DNA of 64,000 nt from Flectonema sp. DT1601 (taxonomy: Eukaryota): NCBI GenBank assembly GCA_964019425.1, contig OZ025797.1, forward strand, positions 372,001 to 436,000. Direction: 5' to 3'. A program made the translations under genes and the position numbers. The notes beneath the pieces were generated by a model. The model ran no database searches and had not been told where the DNA came from. It saw only the letters and a list, made by a program, of their open reading frames with translations. Below are positions 11,638 through 39,457 of this stretch, piece by piece (the first letter of the stretch is position 1; the number at the start of each line of letters is the position of its first letter).

Positions 11638-14600
11638 ATGAAGAAGTCTGCTGGTAGGCTAGCACCCTTGTACCCAACTAAACAAATCTCACAAGATGGT
11701 GTAGAACTATTTCGTTCTTATGACTTTAGTGAAGATCGAATCAAGAGATCAAATCGAGTTGATTCTCGACCACGTCTTGCGATTGAATTAGAAAACTTCA
11801 TCGACACCGAAATGAGAAAGTTAGGAGTTCATAATTGGAGAGAACCACCAACAGTAAAACTAGTAACACCAGAGAGATTATCAGTCTTTGAGACCGCATT
11901 GCGACTCCTTGGTCTTCACTTCACTCCCTACACAGAACTGTTTGATAGTATTATAAGGGAGTACAAGACTTACACAGAACTTCACTGCAGTGGTACTAAG
12001 AAATTACAACTTACAATGAAGTACCTTGACCAAACATACGCTAGAAGTGTTGAGGCAATTCAACACGCATCCGAAGTAACTTCACAGCAATACCAACGAG
12101 CGACTGAAGAAGCAAAACAAAATGAAGAAAAACACAAACAAGAAGCGGAAACTCTGAGTGAAGATGTACAATTATGGAAAACCAAATCCAGAGAGAACCT
12201 AAACAGAGCTTTGTTCCTCCAAACCGTTGTGGATGAGCAGAAAGAAGAACTTCAGCGAGAGCGGCAACACTCATTAAATTTAGAAACAACCGTCAGAGAA
12301 CACAATATCAAACGTACGGAACTCGGTGAGCTTCAACAGGCCTTTGAATCAAAAAGATATTTACTGGCATTGGAAAGAGAGAAACGAGAATCAGCAGAAC
12401 AGCTGGCTGACGAACTAGAGTTGCAGCTGTCACAAGCTGGTAGCAGTATTAAGAAACTCCAGAGAGTCTCTAAAAAAGCAACTGAAAAGCTTCGAGTTAC
12501 TAACTCTGAAAACACCCACCTCTCCACACGTCTTAAGGATGCAGCCCATGAACTCTTACAGTGTCAGTCAGGTGATCCAGTAGTTAGTGGTTCAGGTATG
12601 GATTATTTATCTTTTCAATTTAAGACTCAAATGAATAAGTACAGCGTCGTCTGATGTTGTATAAATTATGTTTTGTTTCCATCGGATGGCCTTAGGTCAT
12701 CAGAATATAAATATTATCTCTGATGCGTCCTTCTTTCATCGTCTCCATTTTTTCATTTTCTTTTAACATTATTACGCTTTTTATTTCTTTCTTTTTATAC
12801 GACTTTCTACACTTTCTTTCTTTCTTTCTTCCTCCTAATGATGTGAGTAAATGATTAGTTGACCCCAAAAGGGTGTTTATTTATTTAAATTGGAGGTAAA
12901 CTGCCATGCCATGGTCCTTGTTACTACATTAGATGAATCTACACAGCGACCTTGCCAATAAATAAATAAAACCTTGCTGCTTTCTGTACTTTATTGATTT
13001 CGCAACCTAATATTGGTAAGAATCAGTGGGTACGTTTCACAGGAAAAGCAATTATGAGAGACAACCTGAGGAGGTTAGTATCGGAGGCTATGAACCTCCT
13101 GAAGATGGTGGGAGATGATGGGATCCCCGAGTATGAGAAAGAGAAAAGAGTAGCGAATCTCCTGATGGAGGTTATCCAGTTCGTGACGGGGTCGGAAGGT
13201 GGGAACCCTGAGATGAAAAGAAGAAGACCGGACACTCCCGAAGTGGGTGGTGGGACGGATGCGACCGCGACGGCAACCGAAGCGACGGCCCCAACCGCAG
13301 GCAGCAATCAACCGACAACAGAGGCGTCTACAGCTTCTAATCAACAGACAACATCGGCACCTAAACAATCAACCTTTTCGTTTCCGCTGCCTGTACCATC
13401 ATCAACATCGACTAAACAAACCACAAAGGGGAATGCTAAAGCAAGCTACCCGGAATGGCATGTACACGGCGCGTGGGCGGGCACTGTGTCTACAATCAAC
13501 TACGACGTAGCAGCGAATGCTACCAACAATCTCGCATCGGGTCTTGTTTTAGTACGCTCTAAACAGGACTGGGAAGCTCTCCGTCAGACAAAGAAGAGTG
13601 GTCGATGGGCTGCAATCAGCAAAGTACCGCTAACCAAAAGCACGGTGCCTGTCGCCATACCGGTGATCAAAAAGGGTGGTGTCTGCGAAATCAGACGAGT
13701 CTTCTACACGCATATCTGTGGTGAAGATTTTTCCAAAGCCACATCCGAAATTCAACATCCGACACCCGACCCCGTCTTGTTTGTTCAGGATTGGGGCAAA
13801 TCAAGTGAAAAAGATCTAACGATCAAAACAAAGGAACTGCTAAAAAAGAAAAAGATTAATGCAGCCCCTTTCAGTTACAAACGAAATGATTCACATTCCT
13901 CAATGGCTATTAGAATTCCCAGAAACCAAGTACACAAGATTCTGGAGTTTAACAATAACGACCCGGAGACCGACAAACCTAAGAATGTATTTGTCAGAAA
14001 CCCGAGCTGGTCAAATGGAAGCGATGTCTGGCCAACTCTTCAATTCAATAACGATCTTGGATTCTTGGCAGCAAAGTCCAAGACATCAATACTGGAAGGT
14101 TTCGAAGGTAAATTCTACCTGTGTAAGTTCAAAACCTGTTATGGACTCCGAGTTCATCCCGACTGCAACACTGAAGTGCGTATTAAGTTAAGCGCGTCAC
14201 TCAAACCTGCACTGCCTTCCGGTGACAGGTACATTATAAAATCAATGGCGATACGGAAATTCTCAACAGCGCAGATCAGCGACTTTATGAAGTCCTCTCA
14301 CAACTGGGAGCACACAGTGGTCGCATCGTTTAACAAAGGTGGAAGCACTACGATTGTGGCGATTTCAAACACGCAGCCTCCCAACTTCGTGAGCATAGGC
14401 ACCAATGAGTACCTTGTGATAAACAAGGAAGTTAAGAAAAGTGACAGAAAACCGCTAGGCCCAACCTACAACCCAGGCGACGCGGCTCAAAAACTGACAG
14501 GAACCCTGAAGAGACAGAAGACAGCTCCTCAACCACAACAACCAACTCAGCTACCACATCAGACGGCAGCAGCACCGACACCAGCGCCAGCACCCACACC

Positions 14601-17600
14601 AGCATCAGCTCCACCACCCACTGAATCTGCTGTTAAACAAGAAGGTGATAAGAACGGCGATGTTGAAATGGAAGATGATGACTCGGATTTTGACCTCAAC
14701 TGACTAGATGAAGATGACGATGATTTAAATCCGACCAACTCACTCACAGAAAAGAATACGGCTCGTGAACTGCTGCTTCAGGCAGGCGATGTCGAACGCA
14801 ACCCTGGCCCTGACGACTCCCTCATATCACTACTAAGCTGGAACTGTCGATCGATGGGGAACAAAGGTGCCTACATACACAAGCTGCTCAATGCCTATGC
14901 GCCTGACGTACTGTGCCTGCAAGAAACTTGGACAAAAGATGTAGTCTCACACACGGATTATTTTACCTATCGGAATGATAGGGCAACACGGGGTGGTGGG
15001 GTTATTACTATGGTGAAGAAATGCCACACTCAGCAGCGTTCTGATATCGTACTTCCGCCTCACTTAAATGATGTTGAAGTTGTAAAGGTCAACATAGGTG
15101 GAAAGATTGACATCTTAAATATTTATGCTCCCCCGGGATGCAAGATCAGAAAGTCAGATCTTCCAGTCTCAACGAAAGCAATCGTCGCGGGTGACTTTAA
15201 TGCCCATCATCCGGTGTGGTCATCAAAATCGACGCCAGCAGGTTCTACTCTACATGAATGGGCAGCACACAATGATCTACTGGTAGCCAACAAGATGGGG
15301 TCAATCACAAGGCCTTTTCCTAATATCCCGGGGGGCGGTACCTCGCCGGACGTAGTATTTTTTCAAAACTCGATGATTCTGGAAGAATTCTCTGTAATTA
15401 GAGAAGATAATAAACATGGATCTGATCACCGACCTCTCTACACCGTACTGGATCCCATGTGTCAACTTACACGTGCCACGATAGGTTCTAAGAAACGTGT
15501 GGTGTGGGACTTCAAGTCTACGGACTGGAACTGCTTTGGAAATATGCTCGATAAGAGAATTAGAAAATCGAAACTCTCCAACGATGCAACTGCGAATGCT
15601 AAGCTCTTTAACAACATACTGCATGAAGTGGCGGCTAAATTCATTCGTCGACGTGTCCTTTTCAAAGGGAAACGGAGACGAAAGTGGAAGACGTCAACAC
15701 CTGATTCTACCAAATCGAAGGGTGTCCACCTACGTGATCAACTTGACAAGGGTAACAACTTTGCCTTCGCGTTTAAGAAGATCAAAGAACTGCAACAAGA
15801 TGCTGGTAAAGATATCAGTGTCAACAACATCTCCGACTGCGACCTACCATCAGCATTCTTGGACCTGTTTGTCTCGAAATCGGAAATATTATCGCTAGAG
15901 GCCCCCGCACTCTCAGAAGGTGATAATGAAATAGATATTTGCTGTGATTTCACAATGGCTGAAATTAAAGCTGCGATTAAGAACCTGAAGACCCGCAAGG
16001 CTGCAGGACCTGATGGAGTTCACAATGAGATGATCAAAAACTTCACTCCGGCAACAGTGGAATACCTCCTGAGAATTATTAACACTTCCTGGAAGACTTC
16101 AAAAGTACCGTACCAATGGAAACAGGGACTAATCAAGCCTATGTTCAAGGCTGGAAAACCTCGAAATGAACTGAAGAGTTTCAGACCCATTACGCTCACA
16201 TCGGTTGTTGGGAAACTTGCGGAGAGGCTCGTGTATGACCGACTCATGCACTGGCTCACTAAACATTCGTCACTCAGCCCACTACAGGCTGGATTCAGAA
16301 GGGGGAGAAATACCTGCGAACAGATCACCGTTTTGGTAGATGCCGTCGTAAGGATGCACATGAAGAGAAAGAGATCGGTGTTCTTATCGTTTGATTTTAC
16401 TGCTGCGTTTGACAGGATCAACCATAAGATACTTTTATTAAAATTGGTAAAGATGGGTGTTCCGAATGTTATTATCAGATGGATCACAGACTTTCTTACA
16501 AACAGGAAGGTTAGAGTTGAAGCGAATGGTTATCTTAGTGAATTCCGTACTCTGGCTAAGGGGGTTCCACAGGGATCGATCCTGGGTCCTCTTCTTTATC
16601 TTATCTACGTTGATGACCTCTGCAAGATTTTGGAACTGGAGAAAGAAACAACGACGTCTGCTCTGTATGCGGATGATACAGCATGTGTAGTATCTGGACA
16701 TAACATGGAAGAAGCTCTTTCAAATGCTCAAATAATACTTGATAAAGTGGATCAATGGTGTTCTGACAACGACATGGCCCTGTCGGTCTCAAAGACCTGT
16801 GCTCTTAAGATGAAAGTCCGTACGAAGGATACGATTCTCAACGACACCTGCAATCGCGAATTACTATTTTCCAGATCTGTTGTGGAAAACGTTATCAAAA
16901 TGGACTATAGTGACATTGAAAAGAGTATCAACTTAAACTCTTCTAGACCCATGCTTCAAAGCGGCGAAACTATTCTCGAGGTTGATGGAACTCCGATCAA
17001 AACGCAAGACGAACTTGACAACGTGATGTTGCGGAATATTGTTCTCGAAAACAACGTGATGGTGGTGAAAGCCAGATTTAAAACCGCATTTCTGTTGCCA
17101 ATCGTGGACTCAGTGAAATACCTCGGAGTTCACATCGACGACAGACTCACTTTCCACAAACAGGTGGCTAAGATTCATGAAGAACTGAAAAAGGGAATAT
17201 CTCTGCTTCAATGCCTTCAACCGTATGATCTTGACTACAAAACGCTAAATATGGTCAAGAACCTTTACGTAACTGCGAGAATCTCTTATGCGCTCGATAG
17301 CTTTGGTTGGTTGATAAGCAACAGCGTTGATAGTATTGATTTCGAACTGAGGAAGGTTGCCAGGCTGGTTACTGGATGCAGCAGGTGCACACCGAGAGAA
17401 CTTCTACTGTGGGAAGCGGACATGCTTCCCTTTAAACGTCAGATCGAAAAGCAAACCAAGATAGCGTACTACAGGTATAAAGCCATGACTTGGATACCTA
17501 GTACCAACAGACTCGCCTCAACCCAAAGCTACTGGGCTGGCCTCCTTCCTGGCATTGACAGCCAGCGTGAAAGCCAGTGCCTTGTACAGCCTGACTCGAT

Positions 17601-20600
17601 GGAACCCTGGGTATCTCCGACAAACCTTAGGATTAGCAACGGCTGCGGATTTCCGAAGTCCGCGAACCCTGCGGTGGACAAAGAAAAATTCATGTCGTAC
17701 ATTGGAACGTTACCTCCTGTCGACATGTTAATCAACTGCGATGGCTCCTACTCTGCTTCCGGCGCGGCCGGAGCGGCTCATATTGCCAAGTCACGTAGCG
17801 GCCTTCGATCTGCTTACGCGTCTAGGCTCTATCAAGCTGACTGCAGCTACAGGGCTGAACAACATGCTCTGAAGAACGCGGCTAGACATCTGAGAACAGT
17901 GTTTAGCAAAGATCCTTCAATGAGATCTGTAAGGCTATTCACGGACTCAAAATCCCTTCTGGATGAACTGCTGGGTGGAAGGTGCAGACAGAGGAATACT
18001 GAGTCCCTCAAGATACTAGAATACCTGCGCATGTGTGAAATGAAAGTGCATTTGCAATTCATCCCCTCGCACATTGGAATCGAGTTTCACGATGAAGTTG
18101 ACGCGCTTGCAAAGGAAGCAGCGCACAACAAGAACATCCGACCTGTGCTAGTCAAAGGCACTTACTTCTCGCGATCATCACATGTTAAGCGCTGCATCAA
18201 AAAGGATCTGCTTAACGTGAGTGGCTACACCTGCTACAAACACCTCATCGGAGGCCGTTCCGTTAAATACCCTCCTGGGATGGAAAGAGCCGACGAGATA
18301 CGGATAGCGAACTTCCGGACAGGATGTCACCCGCTAATTCAGAACTGGCGCAAAAATATCGACTGCCCATTTTGTGGCGAACCGTCCTCACAGGTTCACC
18401 TGCTGCAGGGATGTCAATCTCCCAAACTCGACTCGGCCAGGTTCAAAATCCTGGGCTTCTCAACACTGACCGGCAAGTGGGATCGCGATCGGGAACTTAT
18501 TATTGCCAACGAAATTCCTAACCTTGAAGCCCTCTTCACTTTGGCGTGGCTTCCATCACTCGCGTTGATCATAAGGTGGATGGAACAGACATCTAACCTT
18601 AGACTTTGGAAATAAAGTAGGTGACATGTAGTCGCCAATATCAATTTGTTATTATTTTAGTATTTCCATCATTATCAATCATCTCCTGGTTGGGTGACTG
18701 CACATCACCTTCGGTGTTGTCGCAGTGTCTCATCCAACACTCCTGTCTCCTTCTTCTCCTATTCTCCTTTAAATTTCTCTTGAGGGCAGGCCTTCGGGCT
18801 GTTCAAGTGGTCTTTGACCACCGCTCTAGTTATATGCTCGATTCTTTGTTTTCCTTATCGATGGTAGGAATGGTAACCGAATTAGCTTCATGTGTCCAAT
18901 TTCAAGGACGCGTGACCATTTATTTTTTTCCGTTGCCGCTCTTCTTACGTCCTCAGGCGGAGCCTACCTATGTTTCCCGTGTTTTCCAATTTGTCAGACT
19001 TAAACCAAAAGAAAGTATAAAAGAAAGACAAAACATAGAAGTGAAAAGAACAAAAACAAAGAGTTTGGTAGCACAGACGAGTGTAACCAAAAAAAAAAAA
19101 AAACCTTGCCCATTCAAGACCATTTATTTTTTCCGTTGCCGCTCTTCTTACGTCCTCAGGCGGAGCCTACCTATGTTTCCCGTGTTTTCCAATTTGTCAG
19201 ACTTAAGTTAAAAAGAAAGTATTAAAGAAAGACAAAACATAGAAGTGAAAAGAACAAAAACAAAGAGTTTGGTAGCACAGACGAGTGTAACCAAAAAAAA
19301 AAAAAAAAAAAAAACCTTGCCCATTTTATAGCGCCCGTGGTGTAATGGTAGCAGCAGCAGTCAAATAAACAGGTCTGTAGCCAGGCCTTGTATGCGTGTC
19401 CAGGTTCGATTCCTGGCGGGTGCGATTTTACCACCCTTAAAAACATTATTTATTTATCTATTTTATGCCATAAACAAATTATTTCTGTGCACATTTCATC
19501 ACTCGCGGTAGTTTTTTTTTTTTTTTTTTTGACCTCTAATTTGCTGAGCAATAGTTGTTATATTCCTTGGTGATCCATCTATCGATCCCGACACTGTTCC
19601 AGAAACATGAATGAACAAGTCAATTCTGTTATAATTCTCTTCGATGGATCTGCATAAGAAGTTGTATTCGACACAGCACTCAATGATATGATAGTCGAAT
19701 CAGAAAAGAAACCTTCAGTGATAATGGTGTTGTGTATTTCAAACTAACTGACGACGTAATAAAACTATCTTGTGAAGTATTGTTGTCATCAGAAAGTGGT
19801 GATGCTCTTCACTTATACGATGCAAGAGATAGCAGTGATTATTTAACAGTTAACGTTTACGTTTCGAATAGGAATAGCGAACCTCTATCTTAGCCAATAT
19901 GGGATGTTCAACTATCATCAGTTTATAATAATAATAATATTGTTTGAAATCATCAACCAGTTCATCTCAGGGGGATTTGGGAACTCCAATTTCGCGTTTC
20001 TTTGAAAAAGTAGAGTGAAATGTGCACAGTCGTAATTTTAATTTATGGCATTAAATAAAATTAAACGGTTAAGTTGACATACTTTGTAATAATTATCATC
20101 TCATACAGTGATGCCCCCCCCCCCCCCCCCCCCCCCCCACTCGACGATACTTTCTCTGGTAGTTTATTTAAAGCATGCGATTTTGTGTGGACAGAATCCA
20201 GTTATAATGATTCATGTCTAATTTGTTGCGTGTTAACCCCCCTTGATTTATTTATCCAAATCCCCCCCCACTCGACGATATAATAGAACTGATCAGAGAT
20301 GAGTTTATCAACTTAAGCATCCCTAATTGATACTCATGTGTATTTTTTTTTCTTTTTTAATTAGCAAACCAAAAACAATAACCAAAAAAAAAAACTAAAT
20401 CAGGAACAAGTAAAACACTAACTCCTCGACCAAATTGGAAATGTGATGTACTAATTGATGTTTTATTAAAGGAAGTTGAAGAACCTGCCGGTAGAGAGTA
20501 TCAACAGTCGACATCTGCTAAAAAAGACAATCAACTACAAGTACCTGATGCTAATAATCCTACAGAAAAAGAGGGTATGGCAATGCATGCTGCTGATGAA

Positions 20601-25877: not shown

Positions 25878-27596
25878 ATGCGACCTCTGCTTTGGTTATT
25901 AGTATTCGCATCACTGATCTCTTCCTCAAATGCAGTTCAGATTGAGACTAGAGTTTTTACTGCGGAGTTTTCAGCGAGTGATGAAAACTTTAATATGTAT
26001 GTTGAGCTTCAGAACAGTGGGGACGTAATCTTTGCGGGATTGACTGGCCAAGTCTTCGGAACACGCGATTCAACTGTGACAGTGAGCACTGACCCATCAC
26101 TGCTTTCACCGTCGATAAACCCGCTTCAAATAAGTAGAATTCTTATTCGGCCTACTCTCGAGGGTCGCTCAGAAGACGGTGACGGACTAACTATTCGTAG
26201 TACAATAGAACTATTAACACCAGGTGTGAGACAAGGTAGAATTCCATTCACATGTTATTACCACAATCAGGGAGTACTGAATCCTGCAGTACTTCCAACT
26301 GTTATCATTGACTACTTCCATTCAGCAACTGATTCATTTGCTGAATGTTTTTCTCCATACACAATAACGGAAACTGCATCATTAACTGTAACGAAATCCT
26401 TAACTGTTCCACTTGATTATGCCCTTCCAGAGTTTGCTGTTGACGAAGGCTCAGCACTCGAAGGGTCGCAGTCGGAACCTGCGGTCGCTTCCTTCGCTGA
26501 TGGCGGAGTTGTTGTTTGTTGGACTTCTCAAAATCATGAGTTAATGAGAAGATATGAATTTAATATATTTTGCTTAATGTTTGATGTGACAGGAGCAGAG
26601 CAAGGATCTAAATTTCAAATTAACTCCAACACTTTGGGAACACAGCAGTCTCCTTCAGTAGCTGTCCTTCAAGGGAATTCTATTGTTGTTGTATGGAACA
26701 GTGACCACCTGTCGGGTCACAACGTTATTTCTCGTCAGTTTGACAACGGAGTTGCGAATGCTGAAGGAGAAGTGATTCACAGTGCCCATCTCGCTTCAGG
26801 AAAGAAGACATTGCCTGATGTCGCCAGCATCCCTTCAACTAATTATTTTGTTATCTGTTGGCAATCTTTTGGCAGTGACGGTTCATATTTCGGAGTTTAT
26901 GCTGTTCGTCATTCTGTAGGTGAGAGTAGCGTTCCGTTTCTGGTAAACACCGCGACGCAGTGGGATCAGACGGATGCAAAGGTTGCTTGCTTCACTGACG
27001 GTGGGTATGTAATTACTTGGGGGAGTTATACTACTGGCACTGCTAGTGACATATTCATGAAGAGATACAACGCATTGGATGTTGCTCAAACTCCTTCGGA
27101 TGAAAAGGTAAACTCGGATGACGCGAATACCGAACGTGCTCCAGCGATTGCGAGATTCTCTGACAACACATTCATGATTGTGTGGGTTAGGATTACTACT
27201 ACTGATTCGACATTATGGGCAGCAACATTTGATGCAACAGGTTCTCAGGTTGTAACTGAATTCCGTGTTGACACCGATGTCGGTCTTCGAGTTCGCAACT
27301 GTGACATCGTAACTTTGAATGATGACACAGTTCTTATTACTTGGGGAGCATCAAACGCTGCTGGTACTAGTTTCGGAACATATGCTCGTCGCTTCACTCG
27401 AATTGTTAGTGTTTTGCCTGCGGAATACCAGAATCAGTTTCTTATTAATGAAAACACTGCAGGAGAGAAACTAAAACCCAAAGTTGAGAAGTTTGGTCCT
27501 TGGGGATTCTTCATCACGTGGCAAACTACTGATCCGAATTCTGAAAGTGACGTTACTGGAAAATGGTACCCCGAATATAAACCAATTCTTTTTTAG
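25878..27596 (+). CDS. Secreted repeat-domain protein, paralog 1 (572 aa)
   Basis: Signal peptide MRPLLWLLVFASLISSSNA. C-terminal repeats of type F.VN...Q..P.VA...G..VV.W. Confidence 0.85.
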   Translation: MRPLLWLLVFASLISSSNAVQIETRVFTAEFSASDENFNMYVELQNSGDVIFAGLTGQVFGTRDSTVTVSTDPSLLSPSINPLQISRILIRPTLEGRSEDGDGLTIRSTIELLTPGVRQGRIPFTCYYHNQGVLNPAVLPTVIIDYFHSATDSFAECFSPYTITETASLTVTKSLTVPLDYALPEFAVDEGSALEGSQSEPAVASFADGGVVVCWTSQNHELMRRYEFNIFCLMFDVTGAEQGSKFQINSNTLGTQQSPSVAVLQGNSIVVVWNSDHLSGHNVISRQFDNGVANAEGEVIHSAHLASGKKTLPDVASIPSTNYFVICWQSFGSDGSYFGVYAVRHSVGESSVPFLVNTATQWDQTDAKVACFTDGGYVITWGSYTTGTASDIFMKRYNALDVAQTPSDEKVNSDDANTERAPAIARFSDNTFMIVWVRITTTDSTLWAATFDATGSQVVTEFRVDTDVGLRVRNCDIVTLNDDTVLITWGASNAAGTSFGTYARRFTRIVSVLPAEYQNQFLINENTAGEKLKPKVEKFGPWGFFITWQTTDPNSESDVTGKWYPEYKPILF

Positions 27597-28651
27597 TTTC
27601 TTTTTTCAATTTATTTCTTATTGATTTTCAAGAACATAATTGAAACGAGGAGTCATTCATTCAGTTATCTCAAGGCGAATAGTGTTTTTATAATGGTGGT
27701 TAAGATTTTTTCTTTTTTTTGAATTCTTTTTTTCCCCCCAACTGTATAAAGTCGACCACCTTTTATGCTATTGAGTAAACTAGCTGGATTTGCCTCTTGA
27801 CGGATATCCTAGAGAACTGTACTTTAAGGTCTGTTTCAGTTCTACTTGCGCTGCTTCCCATGTTCCCCTTACCTCTGCTTAGTATTATTTTTTGTTGCTG
27901 TTGTTGTTGTTGTTGTTGTTGTTGTTTTTCTGGGTGATGCTTTCACTTGATTAATCTCTCTTTTTATATTGTAAGAAAACTTGTCTTTTGTTTGCAATGT
28001 AAAAAAAAAAAAAACGAGAAATAATAAAACGAGTGTGTCGCTTAAGCATCTTCAATTTGCGATGCTTGTTATTAAAGTTGAGAGTAAGTGTAAATTTGTT
28101 TTCGTTGTTGTTTTCGCTTCGGCTGATACTACATTGCTGAGAAAACTACTATTTTATTTTGTGGTATAACCCCTACCAACAATCGATTTTTTTTTTTCTT
28201 TGCGAAAAGTAAAGAATCCTTTAGACAAATACAAATATCTTTTTTTTCGATATTAATTTTGTTTTATAAATACCTAAAATTGTTACTGTTTTTACATAAT
28301 CGAAATATCAACTTCCCCCTCTGCCCTTGTGACAGTACTTTTATTGTTTTCCGTATTCTTCCCAGATAGATCTTTTCATATCTTATCAAATTACCCCCCA
28401 GTCCAATTAATATAATTGTTAAGGAATTATTTATTTATTGACAAACTATGATGAAATCAACTCTCTGCTGTAATCCATTGTGCCCTGGTTTTGGTTTCTC
28501 AAGGCTCGCGGTCGATTCCGTACTGCACTGAATGACAAGACATTCTTTTACGATATTTGCAGAGTGTTTAACTTTAGTCAGCTGCGTCATAAATTACTAA
28601 TTGTTTATATTTATTAACTTTTCATGCAATGCAACCTCAAATAAAGTATCA

Positions 28652-28962
28652 GTTCACCATGGGTTCACCATGGGTTCACTATGGGTTCACCATGGGTTCA
28701 CCATGGGTTCACTATGGGTTCACCATGGGTTCACCATGGGTTCACCATGGGTTCACCATGGGTTCACCATGGGTTCACCATGGGTTCACCATGGGTTCAC
28801 CATGGGTTCACTATGGGTTCACCATGGGTTCACCATGGGTTCACCATGGGTTCACCATGGGTTCACCATGGGTTCACTATGGGTTCACCATGGGTTCACC
28901 ATGGGTTCACCATGGGTTCACCATGGGTTCACCATGGGTTCACCATGGGTTCACCATGGGTT
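28652..28962. repeat. 11-bp minisatellite (CCATGGGTTCA) x ~28
   Basis: Tandem units read directly; four CTATGGGTTCA variants. Confidence 0.97.
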
Positions 28963-30573
28963 AACTGAGTTACCTCAACAGTGTTGGTGGGAGTATGGAT
29001 TACTCTCGAAAAAGGTGTTGTTGAAATCTTTTTCTTTCTTTTCTCGTCCCTTATAATTCTTTGGCAGTGAAAGCTTCACGTCACAAGATAGAGCTTAATG
29101 TAAGTGTTGCTGCAGTTGGTAGTTTCTGTTTTAGTGTCGTACGGCTGGTGCGGCTTTTCCGTTTCCTTTCCCTTCAGTTTCACGGACTGGTGCGATATGT
29201 CTCGATAAAAGTTTAGTTCTGTTCTTCTTTAACCTTTGTACTGTGGGGGTTCCCCCACTTGTGCGTGCTACGAACTTTGTTTAATATGATCCAATTCGTG
29301 CAGTTGTATTTTACAAATTCAAACATTCAACCCTACGTGTATGTTACGTTCCGGTAAATGATATCTTTTTTCGCCACAAGGCGTGGGACGTTTAACCTGT
29401 AGCACGTGGCCTTTCCGAATCCCCTTTCTCGACATTTATGGGATTTTATCGATACCAACTGTTGGTATTTACAATCTAGTAACCAGGTTTGGCCGAACCT
29501 ATTTTAGTTTTAGCCAGTTCGGGTTCCTTAATATTGATTACAATATCAAGTTGCTCTTCCTTTTTATTTTCTAATTTTTTTTTTATTCGGTCTTGCAGAC
29601 GTGATGTGGTGTTCTTCACTGAGTGGTCATCACGAACTTTTCAAAAAAAAAAAAAAAAAAGAACTTTCTACCAGTTTTTTTTGAGAAAGAAGAAATTAGT
29701 TTGGATTGCTTTCACGCAAAGAGACTAACCCAGTCGCTCCACCAGGTCCTCGGGTATTCCTTGTTGCTGCACGTCGAGACAACGATCGAGAGAAATTATT
29801 TCGCATTCGTGTATTTTAGAATTCTGAGAGTCTAAGAACAGAGTTTCCATTTTATATTACGAAAAAAAAAAAAAAAAAAACAGCAACCAGCAAACAAAAA
29901 ACAAAAATGATTAAATCATATGAGTCTCACCGAAAGTCAGACTAAACAATTAGTCTAGACTCATCGTTTAGTTTGCCTTTAATCCAACTGAGAGGTTTAC
30001 TCTCCATCATGTATTTTGTTAATAAATAAAATTAAAAAACAAACCAAGCAAGCAAGAAATCGAAAAGTCAGTATTAACTACTGCAATCGAAGATTCTCCG
30101 AGAGTAAGTCTTTTATTAGGACCATCTCTTTGTGATTACTTTCTACTAATCAAAAAAGAAAAAGTGATATGAATTATCCGTTTATTGAGATAAGAGCAGG
30201 CGATACACTCTCCTGTCGAATTCAAGTCTCTCTGGACCCATGATAATATGATTGGGATTATGTGTGTGATAGCGTCCTCAAAGTAATGAGCCTGCAATCA
30301 ATTCTTTTTAATGAGAACATAAATTATTAAATTCCAACTCAAATATTTCTGAAAACACAAATGTTTATTTTATATTAATTTTATTGTTGGAATTAAAGGG
30401 TTTTCTCATGAAGTTTTTATTATTATTTCATTCGTGTTGTCGTTCTCTCTTTTATTGTTCTTTTCTAGACGATAGCGAGCTTCACTCGCAATTTATTTTA
30501 TAATGTTTTCCCACAACCCTTTTCTGTTTTGTTTATATTTCTGTCAGAGTTGTTGTCAGCCCAATTTAATTAA

Positions 30574-32311
30574 CCCATTACGGACGGGGGTAAAACCCGG
30601 TTTTTTGACTTTTTTTGAAAAAAGAGCTAACGGGGAAAAGGGGTAGGGGGGCTCGGAAAGGTGATGTGACAAAGTGAACCGCCATTGCCTGCCCGTTAAA
30701 AATACACACACATTCACCACCTAAAGGGTGAACAGAACAAATGAAAACACCACCAAAGACAACAATAAGCTCAGTTCTTATGACTCCCTGCGCCTCTTCA
30801 ATTTTGATGTTGTTGTGAGTGCAGGGGTCTTCCCCTTCGTACATTCTTCCCGGATAGCACCTCCCGACACAGAGGTGGTGGTATGGGACGCAAATGTTCT
30901 CCCCTTTGTAAGATTTAAGTGGTATTTGCCAAAACAGGGTGCAGGACACATAAAAACCTTACACCCCTGGCATCCATAAGTAGTCCTCACTCGAGTATTG
31001 TGATACTTACATTGTTTAGCAGCGCCAAATATTGATGGATAGTGCTCAGTGGTGCTGAACATGTGTGAAAAGTGCGAATCCGAGTCAATAGTAGATGTAG
31101 TATTGGTTGTCTTGTCTCTCGACGTCCCGTCACTGACGAGTTGCATAGCGAGCTCCTCTACATACCGTATGTAGGTACCAGTATCCTTACCGCATTTCTT
31201 TTGAAGGGTAAACGTGTTGAACATTGAAACTTTCAGCTAGTAGTCGAAAACCTTTAGATGCCATCGTTTAGTTTGAAGGTTTCTGTTCGCCCTTCCCTTC
31301 ACGCTATCCATCAGGTTAACACCTCCCATCGTTTTGGTGTACCTGTCTACTTGCACGGTAGTTTGATCGGCACTTTTTCTTTTTTATTTCTCTTCCTAAT
31401 CCAGCGATATACATCGACACAGTGCTCACGTAAGGGAAGAGTACTGAAAAGATGCACATCCTTTGAGTCTCTCCACTTTATATGGTGGATGCCGTGCTTG
31501 ACTGAAGGTAAGAAGCAGAAAGATTCTTCGGTCTTTCTTTCACTTCCGATTTGCTTAGTCGTCCCGGTCCAGGGGTAGCCTTCGGTTTTGTAACATCAAC
31601 AGAACTCCCTTTCTGTTCCGTCAGGCTGTTCCAACACAGTGGAACCCTTTCGCTAACATCAAAACAAGAAATGCGTATGACGAATTGAAATTGTCAAACG
31701 TCACCCAATGCCCTTTATTATTATGGGGTTTAACAAGACTATGAACATAAGAAGCAGGAATGTGTTTGTTAGCAGTGTGGAAATTACGGAGAAAGCATTT
31801 CAGTTCACCAACTTCTAGTGACTTCATGGACGTCTCTTTGTCAATCGGGTAGGCAAGAGTGTGTCGAAATATCATTTTAAGCACATGATCAGTGAAAATG
31901 AGTTGGATACCTTCAATTCGTTCATTTCATTAAAGTCGCTCACACTCTGGGTAGGTCCTTTCCGTTTTTCCCTGGGGATTCTCTTGGTTTTGCCCCCCCA
32001 CTTTGATACCTTTGCTGTGTTGCTGTCAGATGACGACTCCGATACAGAATCCATCATCATCAGACTTTCATAGGACGCCGAACTTGTATCAATTTCAACA
32101 GGCACACGAAACTTCTTGTTAGGTGGTAAAATTTTGATTATTAGTTTTGAATTTCATGAATAAAAACACAGCGAACCACGCCATCCCACCCAAGATTCGT
32201 CGCGAAACGGCCTCGATTACACCCCCCCTGGGTAGCGTTAGCCGGGTTTTCCCCTTAGCGAAAATAAAATTTCAAAATAACCACTGTAGTGGACCCCCCG
32301 TCCTTAATGGG
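30574..32311 (-). mobile_element. Decayed piggyBac transposon (1738 bp)
   Basis: TIRs CCCATTACGGACGGGGGT and ACCCCCCGTCCTTAATGGG; TTAA TSDs at 30570-30573 and 32312-32315. Broken minus-strand transposase with VTFDNFNSS..L..KGFHCVGT and Cys-rich CKYH..RTTYGCQGCKVFMC..PCFGKYH. Confidence 0.92.
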
Positions 32312-33463
32312 TTAATAATAAAAAGAGTCTCGTAGTTTTATACCGTTACTGGTAGCGATATAACTGTTACCCTGTTGAGTTTTTCCTGGCTTTTGGCTCC
32401 TAGGCTTCGTAAATAAATAAATAAATAAATACATAGATAGTATCTGTTTAATGTTATTTGTGAACCTGACTTGCCTTTTTTCTGCTCTACAAACTTGATT
32501 GGTCTAACTTCCTGCGAATTTACCTTTTTGCGAAACAAGCTGAATTCCTTTTGTTAATTTATTCTCTGTGTGTGTCCTAATGGTCGACGGGTTTGGAGAG
32601 AGTTTTTCAAACAAATAAATGGTGTTCTTGGTGATTCTGTTTTTGGGTGATGCTGCCTTCGAAAAACTTGTCATCTGTGGTGCGTATGCGAACTTCGTAA
32701 TATTCATGTTTGTTACATCATTAGCTGCTATCTTTCTTTTCAACAGTTTTCCCCCTTCGTAGTCTAAGGGATGTTTCACTTTATTTATTTTATTTACTCC
32801 TCCACATCTTCAACTTCTGACAACAATCGGACAGGTATTAAGCTGACAATAGCATACTGTGTTCAGTATACCTGTCAGCCTAAGCTCTTCCATAACATTC
32901 CCAACAAGATTGAGTCTAATTACGTTGCTGTTGCCTCGTAGCTCTATTAGAGTTAACCTGATGCTCTTTAGTTAGCTGCATCGGAGATGAGCAATATGCA
33001 ATGTAATGGACTTCTTTATCTATCTATGTATGTTGATTAAAGAAGAAAAAGGGACAAGTAGTATAAGATTAAGGCCTGGAACTACATATTCTATTACCCT
33101 TTGATGTTAGGAAACTGCGGAAATGAATACTTTTCTTTTGCTTTTCTCTATTTCTTATTCTCACTTTTCTATGATACTTATCTATGTTGATTGGTAAGGG
33201 GAATGGTCCGAAGAAATATTTTTTAATTTTAGCCCGAAACCAACTACTATTTGTTGTCGTGCGAATCTTTTGTATTTGAATTATTTGATTGACTGATAAC
33301 TATTAATACTAATTAAGTTGGTTTGTTTCGAGGATGCGGGTATCACAGTAGACTATAAAACTTATATTATAAGTGTAGCCTTCTAATCTTACAGGCTTCA
33401 CACACTACGATGTAGCGCCTTGAACAGGTGGTCCCAACGTCTAGAAGTAATCAACAAAATAAA

Positions 33464-33715
33464 ATGCGACTTCTGCTTTGGTCATCAGTATTCGCATCAC
33501 TGATCTCTTCCTCAATGCACAAACTTTTATATTTTATGTGAGAGTGGGTTCTCAATATTATGTAACGAGTAGTGAAAGTTTAATGATATTAATATTAGGT
33601 TTCAGAGCAGTGGGGACGTAATCTTTGCAGTCCAGTGTTTGGGTCTGGTTCACGAGGAGTATTTGTGAATGGTCGCTAAATTCACTTCGTATTAGTAGAA
33701 TCATTATTCAACCTC
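33464..33715 (+). pseudogene. Frameshifted 5' fragment of the secreted-protein family (closest to paralog 1)
   Basis: ATGCGACTTCTGCTTTGGTCATCAGTATTCGCATCACTGATCTCTTCCTCAA and TTCAGAGCAGTGGGGACGTAATCTTTGC match paralog 1. Indels and stops present. Confidence 0.8.
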
Positions 33716-34087
33716 GTCATACTTCTCACAGAACACTTTGACGATGTATCACTTCTTAGCATTGCGGCTGGGTTGCTGACATCTTTTTTTAATTTCTTTT
33801 TTTTTATTGTTGTTCATGCAGCTGTCACACTGATTGGTGTTCTCTACCCTTAGCCTATTTGTATCGTTTCCTGCGATTGCTGTTTTTATTGTTCAACAAG
33901 TAAACCTATTTGTAATACTGAATGGAAATGGATTAATAAGATTAACAAGTATTTATTTCTTCAATCAAGAAAACAACAAAACAACAAAGAAGAAATTGTA
34001 GCATGCGACTTGTAGTTATTTCATATCAATTTTATTTTATTTTGTTGTGTAGTTGATTACAACTCCGAAAATAATTAAGAAAATAAA

Positions 34088-35941
34088 ATGCGACCTCTGC
34101 TTTGGTTATTAGTATTCGCATCACTGATCTCTTCCTCAAATGCGCTTCAGATTGAGCTTACAGTTAATTCCGCATGGCCTTCAGCAGAGCGAATTAAAAT
34201 TCGTGCTACGGTTCAGAACGGTGCTTCGCAAGATCTAGGACAAGCTACTTTTACTGGGTCAGGCAATCCAACTGTGATATTGAACTCAGGATCACAGCTT
34301 CCACCGTCGACAAATCCGCGCGATATAACTAAAATCCTGTTCTTTTTTACTGCCGGCAGAACGACAGATGGTCCCAGAGTAATTATTGATAGTACAATAC
34401 AACTATTAACACCAGGTGTGGGACAAGGTAGAATTCCATTCACATGTTATACCTGGGCAGGGGGAAGCCTGAATTCTGGATTGCTTCCAAATGCTTACTT
34501 ACAAGACCTCGCTACAGGACGTGATACATATCCTGAGTGTTATCCATACGTAACGGGAACTGAATCCTTAACCGAGACATTAACTAAATCATTTACGGTT
34601 GGATCATTAACTGAAACACTATCTGTATCGAAATCCTTAACTAAATCATCAACTGAAACATTAACTGCAACGAAATCCTTAACTAAATCATCAACTGAAA
34701 CGCTAACTGTATCAAAATCCTTAACTAAGTCATCAACTGAAACATTAACTGTTCCACTTGATTATGCCCTTCCAGAGTTTGCTGTTGACGAAGGCTCAGC
34801 ACTCGAAGGGTCGCAGTCAGAACCTGCGGTCGCTTCCTTCGCTGATGGCGGAGTTGTTGTTTGTTGGACTTCTCAAAATCGTGAGTTAGTCAGAAGATAT
34901 GAATTTAATATATTTTGCTTAATGTTTGATGTGACAGGAGCAGAGCAAGGATCTAAATTTCAAATTAACTCCAACAATTTGGGAACACAGCAGTCTCCTT
35001 CAGTAGCTGTCCTTCAAGGGAATTCTATTGTTGTTGTATGGAACGGTGACCACCTGTTGGGTCACAACGTTATTTCTCGTCAGTTTGACAACGGAGTTGC
35101 GAATGCTGAAGGAGAAGTGATTCACAGTGCCCATCTCGCTTCAGGAAAGAAGACATTGCCTGATGTCGCCAGCATCCCTTCAACTAATTATTTTGTTATC
35201 TGTTGGCAATCTTTTGGCAGTGACGGTTCATATTTCGGAGTTTATGCTGTTCGTCATTCTGTAGGTGAGAGTAGCGTTCCGTTTCTGGTAAACACCGCGA
35301 CGCAGTGGGATCAGACGGATGCAAAGGTTGCTTGCTTCACTGACGGTGGGTATGTAATTACTTGGGGGAGTTATACTACTGGCACTGCTAGTGACATATT
35401 CATGAAGAGATACAACGCATTGGATGTTGCTCAAACTCCTTCGGATGAAAAGGTAAACTCGGATGACGCGAATACCGAACGTGCTCCAGCGATTGCGAGA
35501 TTCTCTGACAACACATTCATGATTGTGTGGGTTAGGATTACTACTACTGATTCGACATTATGGGCAGCAACATTTGATGCAACAGGTTCTCAGGTTGTAA
35601 CTGAATTCCGTGTTGACACCGATGTCGGTCTTCGAGTTCGCAACTGTGACATCGTAACTTTGAATGATGACACAGTTCTTATTACTTGGGGAGCATCAAA
35701 CGCTGCTGGTACTAGTTTCGGAACATATGCTCGTCGCTTCACTCGAATTGTTAGTGTTTTGCCTGCGGAATACCAGAATCAGTTTCTTATTAATGAAAAC
35801 ACTGCAGGAGAGAAACTAAAACCCAAAGTTGAGAAGTTTGGTCCTTGGGGATTCTTCATCACGTGGCAAACTACTGATCCGAATTCTGCAAGTGACATTA
35901 CTGGAAAATGGTACCCCGAATATAAACCAATTCTTTTTTAG
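34088..35941 (+). CDS. Secreted repeat-domain protein, paralog 2 (617 aa)
   Basis: Same signal peptide and near-identical C-terminal ~395 aa as paralog 1. Different N-terminal domain and a 14-aa Thr/Ser linker repeat (TETLTVSKSLTKSS). Confidence 0.85.
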   Translation: MRPLLWLLVFASLISSSNALQIELTVNSAWPSAERIKIRATVQNGASQDLGQATFTGSGNPTVILNSGSQLPPSTNPRDITKILFFFTAGRTTDGPRVIIDSTIQLLTPGVGQGRIPFTCYTWAGGSLNSGLLPNAYLQDLATGRDTYPECYPYVTGTESLTETLTKSFTVGSLTETLSVSKSLTKSSTETLTATKSLTKSSTETLTVSKSLTKSSTETLTVPLDYALPEFAVDEGSALEGSQSEPAVASFADGGVVVCWTSQNRELVRRYEFNIFCLMFDVTGAEQGSKFQINSNNLGTQQSPSVAVLQGNSIVVVWNGDHLLGHNVISRQFDNGVANAEGEVIHSAHLASGKKTLPDVASIPSTNYFVICWQSFGSDGSYFGVYAVRHSVGESSVPFLVNTATQWDQTDAKVACFTDGGYVITWGSYTTGTASDIFMKRYNALDVAQTPSDEKVNSDDANTERAPAIARFSDNTFMIVWVRITTTDSTLWAATFDATGSQVVTEFRVDTDVGLRVRNCDIVTLNDDTVLITWGASNAAGTSFGTYARRFTRIVSVLPAEYQNQFLINENTAGEKLKPKVEKFGPWGFFITWQTTDPNSASDITGKWYPEYKPILF

Positions 35942-36369
35942 TTTTCTTTTTTCAATTTATTTCTTATTGATTTTCAAGAACATAATTGAAACGAGGAGTC
36001 ATTCATTCAGTTGACTAGTTTTATACGATAGCACACCCTCACTTGTCCTCAACTTGCTTCCTATCGGATCTCAGTCATGTATGAGTTCTCGTTATCATTC
36101 CTTCTTTTATTGTGTTTTCTAGACGATACTACCTCGTGAGCTTCACTCACACCGAATCATGCAACCCTTTTCTGTTTCTGTTTCTGTTTGTTTGGAGTTG
36201 TCAGCCCAATTCAATAAATAGAGAAAGTCTCGTAGTATTGTGATAACCTAATGTTACCCCTCTGCGAACCTGACTTGCTTCGTGATTTTATATTCTGCTC
36301 TATAAAGTTGATTGGTCAAACTTCCTCCTCGAATTTCTTTCCTCTTTCGACCCTCGCAATATTTTAACT

Positions 36370-36703
36370 TTGTTTGTTTATTTGTGCCATAGGTTTCAGC
36401 ATCAGTATTGGCTGAGGCTATAAAATGGTCGACCCCGGATTTCCTACCGTATTATTAGTGTTCTCTTTGGAGGATCTACGTAACTAATATTCGGTGATTG
36501 TTTAGATCCTCTAATTGATTCATAATGATCATTTCTTTATGATAACTCAATAATAATATTGATTACACTAGTTAGTTATCTGTGAATGAGAAGTTTATAT
36601 TGTTGATATGTTGTGTTGCATCACTAATCTTTCATATCTTACAGGCTTCACACACTACGATGTGGCGCCCTGAACGGGATTGCAAGAAGATACCAGTTAG
36701 CAC
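36370..36703 (+). pseudogene. Duplicated upstream region and first codons of the PTP gene
   Basis: Near-identical to about 42308-42641. Encodes MWRPERDCKKIPVST, then breaks off. Confidence 0.8.
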
Positions 36704-36804
36704 TTTGAAACTCACGAAGAATTTTATTATTATTATTTTACTTTTAATCCAACTGGGAGGTTTACTCTCCGACATGTATTTTGTTAATAAATAAATAAAA
36801 TTCA

Positions 36805-37360
36805 AAACAAACAAACAAACAAACAAACAAACAAACAAACAAACAAACAAACAAACAAACAAACAAACAAACAAACAAACAAACAAACAAACAAACAAAC
36901 AAACAAACAAACAAACAAACAAACAAACAAACAAACAAACAAACAAACAAACAAACAAACAAACAAACAAACAAACAAACAAACAAACAAACAAACAAAC
37001 AAACAAACAAACAAACAAACAAACAAACAAACAAACAAACAAACAAACAAACAAACAAACAAACAAACAAACAAACAAACAAACAAACAAACAAACAAAC
37101 AAACAAACAAACAAACAAACAAACAAACAAACAAACAAACAAACAAACAAACAAACAAACAAACAAACAAACAAACAAACAAACAAACAAACAAACAAAC
37201 AAACAAACAAACAAACAAACAAACAAACAAACAAACAAACAAACAAACAAACAAACAAACAAACAAACAAACAAACAAACAAACAAACAAACAAACAAAC
37301 AAACAAACAAACAAACAAACAAACAAACAAACAAACAAACAAACAAACAAACAAACAAAC
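36805..37360. repeat. Perfect (AAAC)n microsatellite, ~139 units
   Basis: Uninterrupted tetranucleotide array of 556 bp. Confidence 0.98.
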
Positions 37361-37759
37361 AAGAAATCGAAAAGTCAGTATTAACTACTGCAATCGAAGA
37401 TTCTCCGAGAGTAAGTCTTTTATTAGGACCATCTCTTTGTGATTACTTTCTACTAATCAAAAAAAGAAAAAGTGATATGAATGATCCGTTTATTGAGATA
37501 AGAGCAGGCGATACACTCTCCTGTCGGATTCAAGTCTCTCTGGACCCATGATAATATGATTGGGATTATGTGTGCGATAGCGTCCTCAAAGTAATGAACC
37601 TGCAATCAATTCTTTTTAATGAGAACACAAATTATTAAATTCCAACTCAAATATTTCTGAAAACACAAATGTTTATTTTATATTAATTTTATTGTTGGAA
37701 TTAAAGGGTTTTCTCATGAAGTTTTTATTATTATTCGTTCTGTCCGGTTCCGTATGTTA

Positions 37760-38330
37760 AATGGCTTGCGAACTATCTTTCGGATAGAAATGTGAGTCTG
37801 TCTCTGGGACTAGATAATGGATCCAGATCCTGTACGAAGGGGGTCCCTCAAGGATCTGTGCTTGGTCCTCTCTTATTTCGGATCTTTGTCGACTCCCTGC
37901 CAGGTCTAATAAGCGATGCTGATCTCAGTGTTATGTTTGCTGATGATCTTGAGAAGACGTTTTCCGGGAGGCACACATTTTCTACAAGGAGCTCCTGACT
38001 GCGCACCAGAGCATCAAGATAGCGTCTATTTTACTCCGACCCTGTCACTTAAGTGCGACAATTTACCGGGTCCAAGCATACCTAAAAGGACATTCCTCTA
38101 CGTTCAAAGCCAACGTCATCCTACAGCAGTCCTTCAGATGTCTTAAATCAGCTCAACAGACTCTCGAAGTCGAGTGGGTCCCCACTAACGCACAGAGACT
38201 CTTACACCAGGAGCACCGCCGTACCTGTGACGGGTATTGTGCCTGAAGCACAGTGGTTTCATAAATATCTTAGCCTGGACATCTCGGCCTTCAATAATTA
38301 ACTTTATTTGGTATTATCTCCACAGAACTG
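37760..38330 (+). pseudogene. Decayed non-LTR retrotransposon RT fragment
   Basis: KGVPQGSVLGPLLFRIFVDSL..MFADDL at about 37837-37950, disrupted on both sides. Boundaries approximate. Confidence 0.85.
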
Positions 38331-39457
38331 CGCGACATTTGGTCATCATACGTGACAACATCCCGCGACGGTTGTTTCCCCCCTCCCAACCTTTTTTCTA
38401 AAGAATTTTACAAAGAAATGTTCATTTTTGTTTTTTTATAAGGATTGTTTATTTCTTGACGAGACTATAGGCGACACCTACACTCTGCCGTATTACATTA
38501 TACCCTGGTTTTAGTTTCCCAGGGCTCACGATTAATTCGTAATTTAATAACTCGATTCCGTACTGCACTGAATGACAACACGGAAAAAGAGACATGTATG
38601 CAGATAAGTTAGAAACATTGATTATAATGTAGAGCAAGTACGTCAATTGTAGAGTGTTAGCCTGTATTAACATTTTAGTCACTGTGTCATGAGTTTTTTA
38701 ATTTTATTATTGAGTTCTGATACAATGCAGAGATTTATATTCGTATGAACCTAATCAAAGAGTCTTCCCCCCTCCCTCTTTTATGTGTATTTGGGTATAT
38801 ACGTTTTTTTCATCAGCAGTGTGCCTTCTTTGTTCCGGTACCGACTGTTGTGAAGAAAAGTTGATATCGTTGTCGTTGTTTCGGCTGGCATGTTAACAGT
38901 TCTACCCGAATATAGAATCCGGGTTCCCTAATTAGGGTCCTGATGCGACTGCGAAAAAGCAAAAAACGTTTTGTGTGTGTTCGTAAAGGGTTTTTCTGAT
39001 TTCCGACTAGCAGCGCCAAGCCCTATGCAAGTGATTCTTTAACCCCATTATACTTCACCCTCTCAGGAATTACTGAACAAGATCAAAGGCTCAATTATAT
39101 TTTTTTTTATTGTTGTTAATGTGGCTGTCACACTGGTTGGTGTTCTCTACCATTTACAAGTATTTATTTCTTCAATCAAGAAAACAACAAAACAACAAAG
39201 AAGAAATTGTAGCATGCGACTTGTAGTTATTTCATATCAATTTTATTATAGTTTAGGTAGTCATTTATTCCAGGTTATTCTACGTCTCTTGTCGTCTGTG
39301 AGAGTCTCACAGTTGCTGGTAGCGATATAACTGTTACCCTGTTGAGCTTTTCCTGGCTTTTGGCTTCCTAGGCTTCGTAAATAAATAAATAAAAATAAAA
39401 ATATTTTCTTTTGTTGTGTAGGTGATTACAACTCCGAAAAGTAATTAAGAAAATAAA

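What the first reader, a model, noticed from the sequence alone, without database searches (positions are those of the whole stretch)
12968..13056. Retrotransposon 5' end is a spliced-leader relic: the element seems to transpose via an SL-trans-spliced RNA
Seen: immediately inside the TSD lies TGC + TTTCTGTACTTTATTG, then only 57 nt before the ORF1 ATG. Those 57 nt include TATTG-GTAAG (like an SL exon/intron junction) and an acceptor-like TTTCACAG (13035-13042). Known: the 16-mer is the 3' end of the diplonemid/kinetoplastid SL exon. L1Tc/ingi instead begin with a ~77-nt promoter/HDV-ribozyme signature, and SLACS/CRE/CZAR insert into SL genes, but the 3' flank here is not SL sequence. Inference: the element has little room for its own promoter, rides host transcription (it is co-oriented within an intron) and is excised and capped by trans-splicing. 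Trans-splicing removes the acceptor it uses, so how the element keeps a 5' end across generations is an open question; the reserve internal AG may be part of the answer.
Basis: partly seen in the sequence, partly recalled or inferred. Interest (0 to 1): 0.9.

Follow-up and report, generated by a model that had tools for sequence, protein, structure and literature searches.

The report
Retrotransposon capped by host spliced leader
A retrotransposon in a diplonemid protist begins with the last 16 letters of the euglenozoan spliced leader, as does at least one other copy, so it likely copies itself from an RNA capped by host trans-splicing and would renew its lost splice site from the leader's own internal AG.

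Summary
A 6.1-kb APE-type non-LTR retrotransposon starts, just inside its target duplication, with spliced-leader (SL) nt 24-39; about 2e-4 such matches are expected per window. Closest named relatives are from Flectonema neradi, a diplonemid. Of 13 ORF1 cluster members, 3 read into the 5' end: one translates through poly(A) plus the remnant, two start at the codon where the SL ends. The remnant begins exactly behind the SL's internal CAG. Seven other euglenozoan loci show partial SL plus a second piece starting at that same base, two in front of reverse transcriptases: the dinoflagellate-type relict-SL pattern. Not shown: the host's SL, any RNA, or any family copy that keeps the CAG. Both visible junctions lack it, so a frozen relic (0.2) stays open. 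Extras: conserved in-frame stop plus 2A motif between the ORFs; giant-virus-like contigs encoding the full SL behind a promoter-like motif.

The parts
12968..12977 (+). 5' target-site duplication AAAACCTTGC
   Evidence: identical to 19100-19109
12978..12980 (+). three junction bases TGC: slipped repeat of the duplication's end, or SL nt 19-21 with one change and the AG lost
   Evidence: sequence; SL from L064; origin unresolved
12981..12996 (+). SL remnant, exon nt 24-39, starting directly behind the SL's internal CAG
   Evidence: seen as FCTLL in P0188
12997..13053 (+). 57-nt 5' UTR with four AG dinucleotides (13019, 13025, 13041, 13047)
   Evidence: whole UTR read through in P0181, P0182, P0188
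12998..13015 (+). possible older, decayed second SL relic (11-12 of 16 letters); suggestive only
   Evidence: 38-52 of 5000 UTR shuffles but 292-328 of 5817 window 22-mers score as well; noticed after the fact
13054..14703 (+). ORF1, 549 aa, no Pfam family at E 0.001; predicted tandem ferredoxin-like (RRM/ACT-type) domains
   Evidence: best Z 7.6, rmsd 3.5, 81 aligned: a common fold
14701..14707 (+). in-frame stop TGA-CTAG between ORF1 and ORF2; readthrough inferred
   Evidence: same end in 8 of 13 and 13 of 15 members of two subfamilies, the rest broken earlier
14785..14811 (+). 2A-like motif GDVERNPGP ahead of the endonuclease
   Evidence: motif and position as in PMC3708506
14704..18615 (+). 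ORF2 frame: APE endonuclease, reverse transcriptase, RNase H, C-terminal CxxC...H...C
   Evidence: Pfam PF14529, PF03372, PF00078, PF00075
18616..19099 (+). 3' UTR and poly(A)
19100..19114 (+). 3' target duplication of the full copy, also 5' duplication (15 bp) of the short copy
19115..19310 (+). second, 5'-truncated copy (3' end of the element plus poly(A)) at the same nick site
   Evidence: alignment
19311..19325 (+). 3' target duplication of the short copy
19331..19424 (+). tRNA-like gene with intact acceptor and T arms and an irregular anticodon region, 20 nt downstream of the nick
   Evidence: Rfam RF00005 31.7 bits; not found or by ARAGORN
12596..20403 (+). inferred host intron holding all of the above
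   Evidence: frame test; upstream exon resembles a TSNAXIP1 N-terminus, a lead only

Best explanation
The element is an APE-type non-LTR retrotransposon whose 5' end is SL nt 24-39; it is likely copied from an RNA that the host cut out of read-through transcription and capped by SL trans-splicing, and source copies would be re-spliced at the CAG inside their own integrated SL. Steps: (1) shown: SL sequence is joined to the element at 12997 here and in at least one more copy; (2) inferred: the RNA comes from host polycistronic transcription; (3) inferred from other euglenozoan loci: a copy that keeps SL nt 21-23 (CAG) brings a new acceptor with it, and splicing there leaves exactly this 16-mer as a relic behind the new SL; (4) inferred: this copy is a daughter clipped at the CAG boundary, perhaps because acceptor-bearing copies inside host genes are purged; (5) inferred: the capped RNA makes ORF1 and, by readthrough of TGA-CTAG and 2A skipping, the enzyme.
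For: Exact SL end inside the target duplication, far beyond chance. P0188, a different locus, reads own 3' UTR, KKKKK, FCTLL, then the full UTR; P0181 and P0182 start at the codon that is the SL's last TTG here, which an AG acceptor could not give (that the gene caller used ATG/GTG/TTG is my assumption). So 4 of 4 visible junctions are SL-type at one nucleotide. In 7 of 38 tandem-SL loci the second piece starts at nt 24 although the pattern allowed 13 starts; L038 has a third piece starting behind the other AG. Two of the 7 lie before reverse transcriptases (L004 E 1.2e-9, L023 E 1.6e-6), and L068 has SL nt 5-39 before one in a non-SL flank (E 1.9e-18). Re-splicing at the leader's internal AG is the published reading of dinoflagellate relics (PMC5585692 passages). 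19 of 19 ATG ORFs of 230 aa or more in the window are on the element's strand. No HDV-like fold starts at the 5' end.
Against: No family copy with the CAG or a doubled 16-mer was seen; both junctions that can be read start at nt 24 or 25, which fits a defined RNA end better than random clipping. No RNA evidence and no host SL gene. The outside elements are of other clades (CRE-like, R2/NeSL-like by motifs) and other hosts; CRE-type elements insert between SL nt 11 and 12 (PMC5814959 passage), so SL in front of L004 and L065 can be target duplication. 5 of the 7 tandem loci show no reverse transcriptase in the 1.5 kb or less held. The other 31 of 38 loci have a second piece from nt 19, one base off an AG; they share one contig series and sit on unrelated genes, probably an artefact. 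A second family's copy P0228 reads 117 nt upstream of ORF1 with no SL translation. Pure CAG re-use would add a 16-mer each round; long arrays were not seen.
Confidence: 0.55

Rival explanations
1. Frozen relic: the SL piece was captured once by trans-splicing and is now a fixed part of the element; RNA starts at about 12981 from an internal promoter or a cleavage, and the piece may act as an SL mimic or promoter motif.
For: Both readable junctions start within one base of each other; in P0188 poly(A) meets the remnant with no target duplication, as after a template jump from a true RNA end. A 77-nt internal promoter exists in L1Tc (PMC8190864). Relict SL as promoter is proposed for dinoflagellates (PMC5585692). 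Virus-like contigs encode SL in cis, so a cis SL can be useful to a parasite.
Against: The start would coincide with the CAG boundary by chance (about 1 in 20-35). No ribozyme fold from the 5' end. The family is young (about 99% identical ORF2), so identity to SL says little either way.
Confidence: 0.2
2. Recurrent trans-splicing, but onto the remnant's own terminal TG (the remnant serving as pyrimidine tract); each cDNA is clipped in the loop of the SL hairpin TACAG-TTT-CTGTA, leaving 14-16 nt.
For: Explains 16 and 15 nt with no CAG-bearing source. The hairpin is predicted with its loop at nt 24-26. Minor T. brucei sites are AG in only 75% of cases (PMC2936537 passage).
Against: Major sites are 98% AG and the paper doubts some non-AG sites. 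Integrated SL pieces elsewhere run through the hairpin to about nt 4-8 (L023, L038, L066, L067, L068), though that scan required TACAG.
Confidence: 0.13
3. Not trans-splicing: the reverse transcriptase finishes at 12997 and jumps onto a free SL exon, or picked up SL from an SL gene, as in U6/L1 chimeras (recalled).
For: Needs no acceptor; none of 4 visible junctions has AG at 12995-96. P0188 suggests template jumps occur.
Against: Needs the same jump in 4 of 4 copies; the insertion site and endonuclease are not SL-specific; the UTR is not SL-intron-like.
Confidence: 0.08
4. Chance match or pre-existing flank sequence.
For: The window is AT-rich and holds 5 further matches at 2-3 mismatches.
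Against: Expectation about 2e-4 per window; both 3' copies of the target continue CCATT, not the 16-mer; second copy P0188.
Confidence: 0.01

Closest known systems
Ingi clade non-LTR retrotransposons (L1Tc, ingi)
   Same: APE, reverse transcriptase, RNase H, 2A-like motif directly before APE, poly(A), target duplication, euglenozoan host (PMC12278014, PMC3708506, PMC5814959 passages).
   Different: They have one ORF and a 77-nt promoter/HDV ribozyme and make unspliced RNA without SL; this element has a 549-aa ORF1, an in-frame stop before 2A and an SL remnant at the 5' end.
Dinoflagellate retrogenes with relict SL
   Same: Retro-copied SL in genomic DNA; boundary at the leader's internal AG, read as re-splicing there (PMC5585692 passages).
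   Different: Described for host genes copied in trans, in alveolates; here it is an autonomous retrotransposon in a euglenozoan.
SLACS / CRE1 / CZAR (CRE clade)
   Same: Non-LTR elements with SL exon sequence at their 5' junction in kinetoplastids.
   Different: Restriction-like endonuclease and insertion between SL nt 11 and 12 of SL genes, SL on both sides (PMC12278014, PMC5814959); here APE, a non-SL target and SL at the 5' end only.
R2 and other promoterless elements released from host transcripts (recalled)
   Same: Ride host transcription and need a processing step to define the 5' end.
   Different: They use a self-cleaving ribozyme; here the step would be the host spliceosome.
Dictyostelium TRE5 / tRNA-adjacent elements (recalled)
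   Same: Two insertions at one nick 20 nt upstream of a tRNA-like gene.
   Different: One locus only; targeting not established.

Membership tests
Retro-copied SL relic | exact match to the SL exon 3' end, ending at its last base | tested here: met
   nt 24-39 of L063, L064, L070 exons
Retro-copied SL relic | inside the insertion, absent from the target site | tested here: met
   both 3' target copies continue CCATT; no empty allele was available
Retro-copied SL relic | matches this host's own SL | not testable with these tools
   no genome, no RNA holder listed
Dinoflagellate-type relict SL | relic starts behind the leader's internal AG | tested here: met
Dinoflagellate-type relict SL | new SL or tandem relics in front of or behind the relic in this family | tested here: inconclusive
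   none in front in 2 readable copies; weak decayed second relic; clear tandems only in other hosts
Dinoflagellate-type relict SL | RNA with full SL joined to the relic | not testable with these tools
Ingi clade (L1Tc/ingi) | APE + RT + RNase H | tested here: met
Ingi clade (L1Tc/ingi) | 2A-like motif before APE | tested here: met
   activity not tested
Ingi clade (L1Tc/ingi) | single ORF, no ORF1 | tested here: not met
   ORF1 with conserved stop
Ingi clade (L1Tc/ingi) | HDV-like ribozyme from the first base | tested here: not met
   own descriptor found no fold starting before 13076; no Rfam ribozyme; a divergent fold could be missed
Ingi clade (L1Tc/ingi) | Pr77 sequence | not tested
   sequence not retrieved
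Ingi clade (L1Tc/ingi) | RT groups with ingi | tested here: inconclusive
   quick tree of 63 of 64 rows: the 7 diplonemid rows form one clade (100); they join the Leptomonas APE-type protein P0082 only in an open group at 88; no named ingi in the set
CRE clade (SLACS/CRE/CZAR) | restriction-like endonuclease | tested here: not met
   APE instead
CRE clade (SLACS/CRE/CZAR) | inserted in an SL RNA gene between nt 11 and 12 | tested here: not met
   flanks are not SL
tRNA-gene-targeting retrotransposons | most copies at a fixed distance from tRNA genes | tested here: inconclusive
   two insertions at one site; other flanks not available

The most novel reading that the evidence does not exclude
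Euglenozoan non-LTR retrotransposons of several clades have replaced promoter and ribozyme with the host spliced leader: each copy carries in an SL whose internal CAG is the acceptor for the next round, a self-renewing 5' end supplied by the spliceosome.
Probability: 0.4. Interest if true: 0.87.

Novelty: new variant of a known kind. Interest (0 to 1): 0.74.

Why it matters
How non-LTR retrotransposons keep a working 5' end is a standing problem, solved so far by internal promoters or ribozymes. The known euglenozoan relatives (L1Tc, ingi) make unspliced RNA. An element that lets host trans-splicing cut and cap it, and regains its acceptor from the leader itself, would be a third solution, and the SL remnant gives a direct tag for testing it by junction counts and RNA reads. 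It also extends the relict-SL recycling known from dinoflagellate genes to euglenozoans and to autonomous elements.

Tried and rejected
No whole genome held. Sequencing runs: 2 holders at share 0.06, no RNA holder listed; laying them gave 16 short pieces and 2, none over the 5' junction or a 3' flank. Exact 5'-junction scan of metagenome contigs: 0; tandem pattern in genome contigs: 0; ORF1 in viral contigs: 0. Metagenome and viral records could not be searched further by handle, so 5 tandem loci stay unclassified; L009 has only a weak UCH hit (E 0.014) and no longer relatives; L007 no atlas hit. SL/UTR hairpin: not significant (z -0.9; 134 of 2000 shuffles). UTR as decayed SL gene: not significant (176-466 of 3000). 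An HDV-like core at about 13230-13260 has a weak first helix and lies in codons that differ in the sister subfamily; rejected. Foldseek on ORF1: no match at E 0.001. Earlier findings of the scan: nothing. Diplonema SL sequence not found in print or in 7 supplementary files of PMC10161547; files not held may contain it.

Full report
What is there. Positions 12978-19099 hold a non-LTR retrotransposon between copies of AAAACCTTGC. ORF1 (549 aa) ends in TGA-CTAG; the frame continues through an acidic linker, a 2A-like GDVERNPGP, APE endonuclease, reverse transcriptase and RNase H. A second, 3'-end-only copy sits at the same nick, 20 nt upstream of a tRNA-like gene (missed). The ORF2 cluster has 101 members; three more families share contig sizes with it, and the closest named relatives are Flectonema neradi transcripts, with ORF1 and ORF2 from one Trinity gene. 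The host is therefore taken to be a diplonemid. A profile search of 1.84 billion representatives found 6 ORF1 relatives; the named ones are Flectonema, the rest unnamed long contigs.

The observation. All coordinates check. The 16-mer is nt 24-39 of the 39-nt exon in three SL gene loci (L063, L064, L070) and follows CAG at nt 21-23; PMC12153298 prints the same AG-plus-16-mer for Blastocrithidia (passage). That the L064 exon is the diplonemid type is recalled; the same exon end heads transcript-like contigs. Chance expectation is about 2e-4 per window. The host's own SL could not be seen.

Other copies. No DNA of other copies was obtainable, but gene calls show their 5' ends. Of 13 ORF1 cluster members, P0188 reads the element's own 3' UTR, five lysines (poly(A)), FCTLL (the remnant from nt 25) and the entire UTR; P0181 and P0182 begin at the codon that is the SL's terminal TTG here. 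The other 10 start at the ATG or are broken and say nothing. With the window, 4 of 4 visible junctions are SL-type at 12997 and none has an AG there. In the sister subfamily 15 of 20 members were listed and none reads into the UTR; in a second family 15 of 18 were listed and the one extension (P0228) shows no SL translation over 117 nt.

How the 5' end could be renewed. The remnant starts where splicing at the SL's own CAG would cut. In dinoflagellates this is the published reading of relict SLs (PMC5585692, passages). A scan for tandem 16-mers with 0-12 nt between them gave 38 loci. In 7, a partial SL is followed directly by a second piece from nt 24; 5 of these have other sequence upstream, one beside an amastin gene, and L038 has a third piece starting behind the AG at nt 16-17. 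Two of the 7 precede reverse transcriptases (L004, L023). The other 31 have a piece from nt 19, on unrelated genes from one contig series; I read them as an artefact, but they do not fit the AG rule. A scan of genome contigs for TACAG plus the 16-mer gave 9 contigs: 3 SL gene loci, 2 AT-rich virus-like, and 4 with integrated SL, of which L068 has SL nt 5-39 before a reverse transcriptase and L065 has SL between two CRE-like elements. Pieces reaching about nt 4-8 fit a stop at the modified cap nucleotides (recalled). Caution: CRE-type elements insert between SL nt 11 and 12 (PMC5814959, passage), so SL starting near nt 12 (L001, L004, L065) may be target duplication, and these scans were selected for what they found.

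The gap. Neither readable family junction keeps the CAG; they start at nt 24 and 25. Random clipping would rarely do that twice. Candidates: purging of acceptor-bearing copies from host transcription units (this one lies in sense in a likely intron, in a window where 19 of 19 long ORFs share its strand); clipping at the SL hairpin loop; or an RNA that truly starts there. The three bases TGC may even be SL nt 19-21 with the AG deleted. A decayed second relic may follow at 12998-13015, but 5% of window 22-mers score as well. I therefore put SL origin of the 16-mer near certainty, recurrent trans-splicing at about 0.68 (0.55 via CAG, 0.13 via TG), and a frozen relic at 0.2.

The downstream AG is a poor renewal site, since its use would shorten the leader permanently. 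TATTG-GTAAG is not SL-gene-like beyond eight letters. The 73-nt leader is as long as L1Tc's 77-nt promoter, so lack of room is no argument (PMC8190864, passages).

Translation. Every listed member reaching the ORF1 end stops at the same place (8 of 13, 13 of 15, 15 of 15 in three groups; no fusion among fetched proteins). In this subfamily the first ORF2 methionine lies behind the first APE motif, so readthrough of TGA-CTAG (a readthrough context by recall) followed by 2A release is the likely route; untested. Ingi elements lack ORF1 (PMC3708506, passages). The ORF1 model (mean pLDDT 64) shows tandem ferredoxin-like domains of RRM/ACT type, Z up to 7.6, a common fold.

Known or new. It works like dinoflagellate relict-SL recycling and is built like an ingi relative, but fails ingi membership on ORF1 and the ribozyme, and CRE membership on endonuclease and target. 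Searches of the open-access library listed no paper describing an SL-capped autonomous retrotransposon in diplonemids; most subscription papers are not covered. Papers seen as passages: PMC10161547, PMC12278014, PMC8190864, PMC2868825, PMC12621601, PMC12153298, PMC7052976, PMC5585692, PMC2936537, PMC3708506, PMC9270025, PMC11771631, PMC5814959; PMC7859406 as passages and section 17. Verdict: real feature, new variant of a known kind, interest 0.74.

Noticed in passing
L044-L055 (L039-L043 wider); viral contigs, one 237,777-nt contig (9 loci) and one GVMAG record (3 loci): Giant-virus-like DNA encodes SL nt 1-23 (11 of 12 with a full or nearly full 39-nt SL) 18-19 nt behind AAAA(T/A)TGA in 12 of 12 cases and shortly before an ORF. 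The motif is the Mimiviridae early promoter by recall. Reads as a virus that writes the host's spliced leader into its own mRNAs, and points to a diplonemid-type host. One search listed no report. Deserves its own follow-up.
   Followed up: partly
L056:6001-6021 and L069:2373-2393: Two AT-rich contigs filed under bacterial MAGs also hold an SL-like sequence before an ORF, one behind the same motif at 26 nt; probably further viral cases.
   Followed up: no
window 14701-14811: Conserved in-frame stop TGA-CTAG followed by a 2A-like motif; ORF1 ends in Asn in all three families and in two of three Flectonema proteins. Likely readthrough plus StopGo.
   Followed up: partly
window 19100-19424: Two insertions at one nick 20 nt upstream of a tRNA-like gene whose anticodon region carries about 21 extra nt; a further ACCTTGCC-A motif at 12949-12957 ahead of an A-rich run may mark a third event. 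P0185's flank translates as GSSP, as a tRNA T-loop would.
   Followed up: partly
L066:4326-4501 and L067:5503-5617: SL nt 5-39 inserted with a 72-nt duplication of neighbouring sequence, and SL twice in tandem with a 10-nt tail: short SL-capped cDNAs integrated in a kinetoplastid-type genome.
   Followed up: no
L065, L068: CRE-like elements with 2A-like motifs (GGVEQNPGP, DVEPHPGP) near the N-terminus; 2A was described for APE-type clades in PMC3708506.
   Followed up: no
L007 and L017: Share about 100 nt at 82% identity behind SL plus relic, then unrelated low-complexity ORFs: a possible common element 5' signature.
   Followed up: no
L057-L070: Euglenozoan contigs, including SL gene arrays, are filed inside bacterial genome records.
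   Followed up: no
window 25878-41269: Three tandem paralogues of a secreted-looking protein, two with Thr/Ser-rich internal repeats, and long microsatellites at 28581-29031 and 36654 onward.
   Followed up: no
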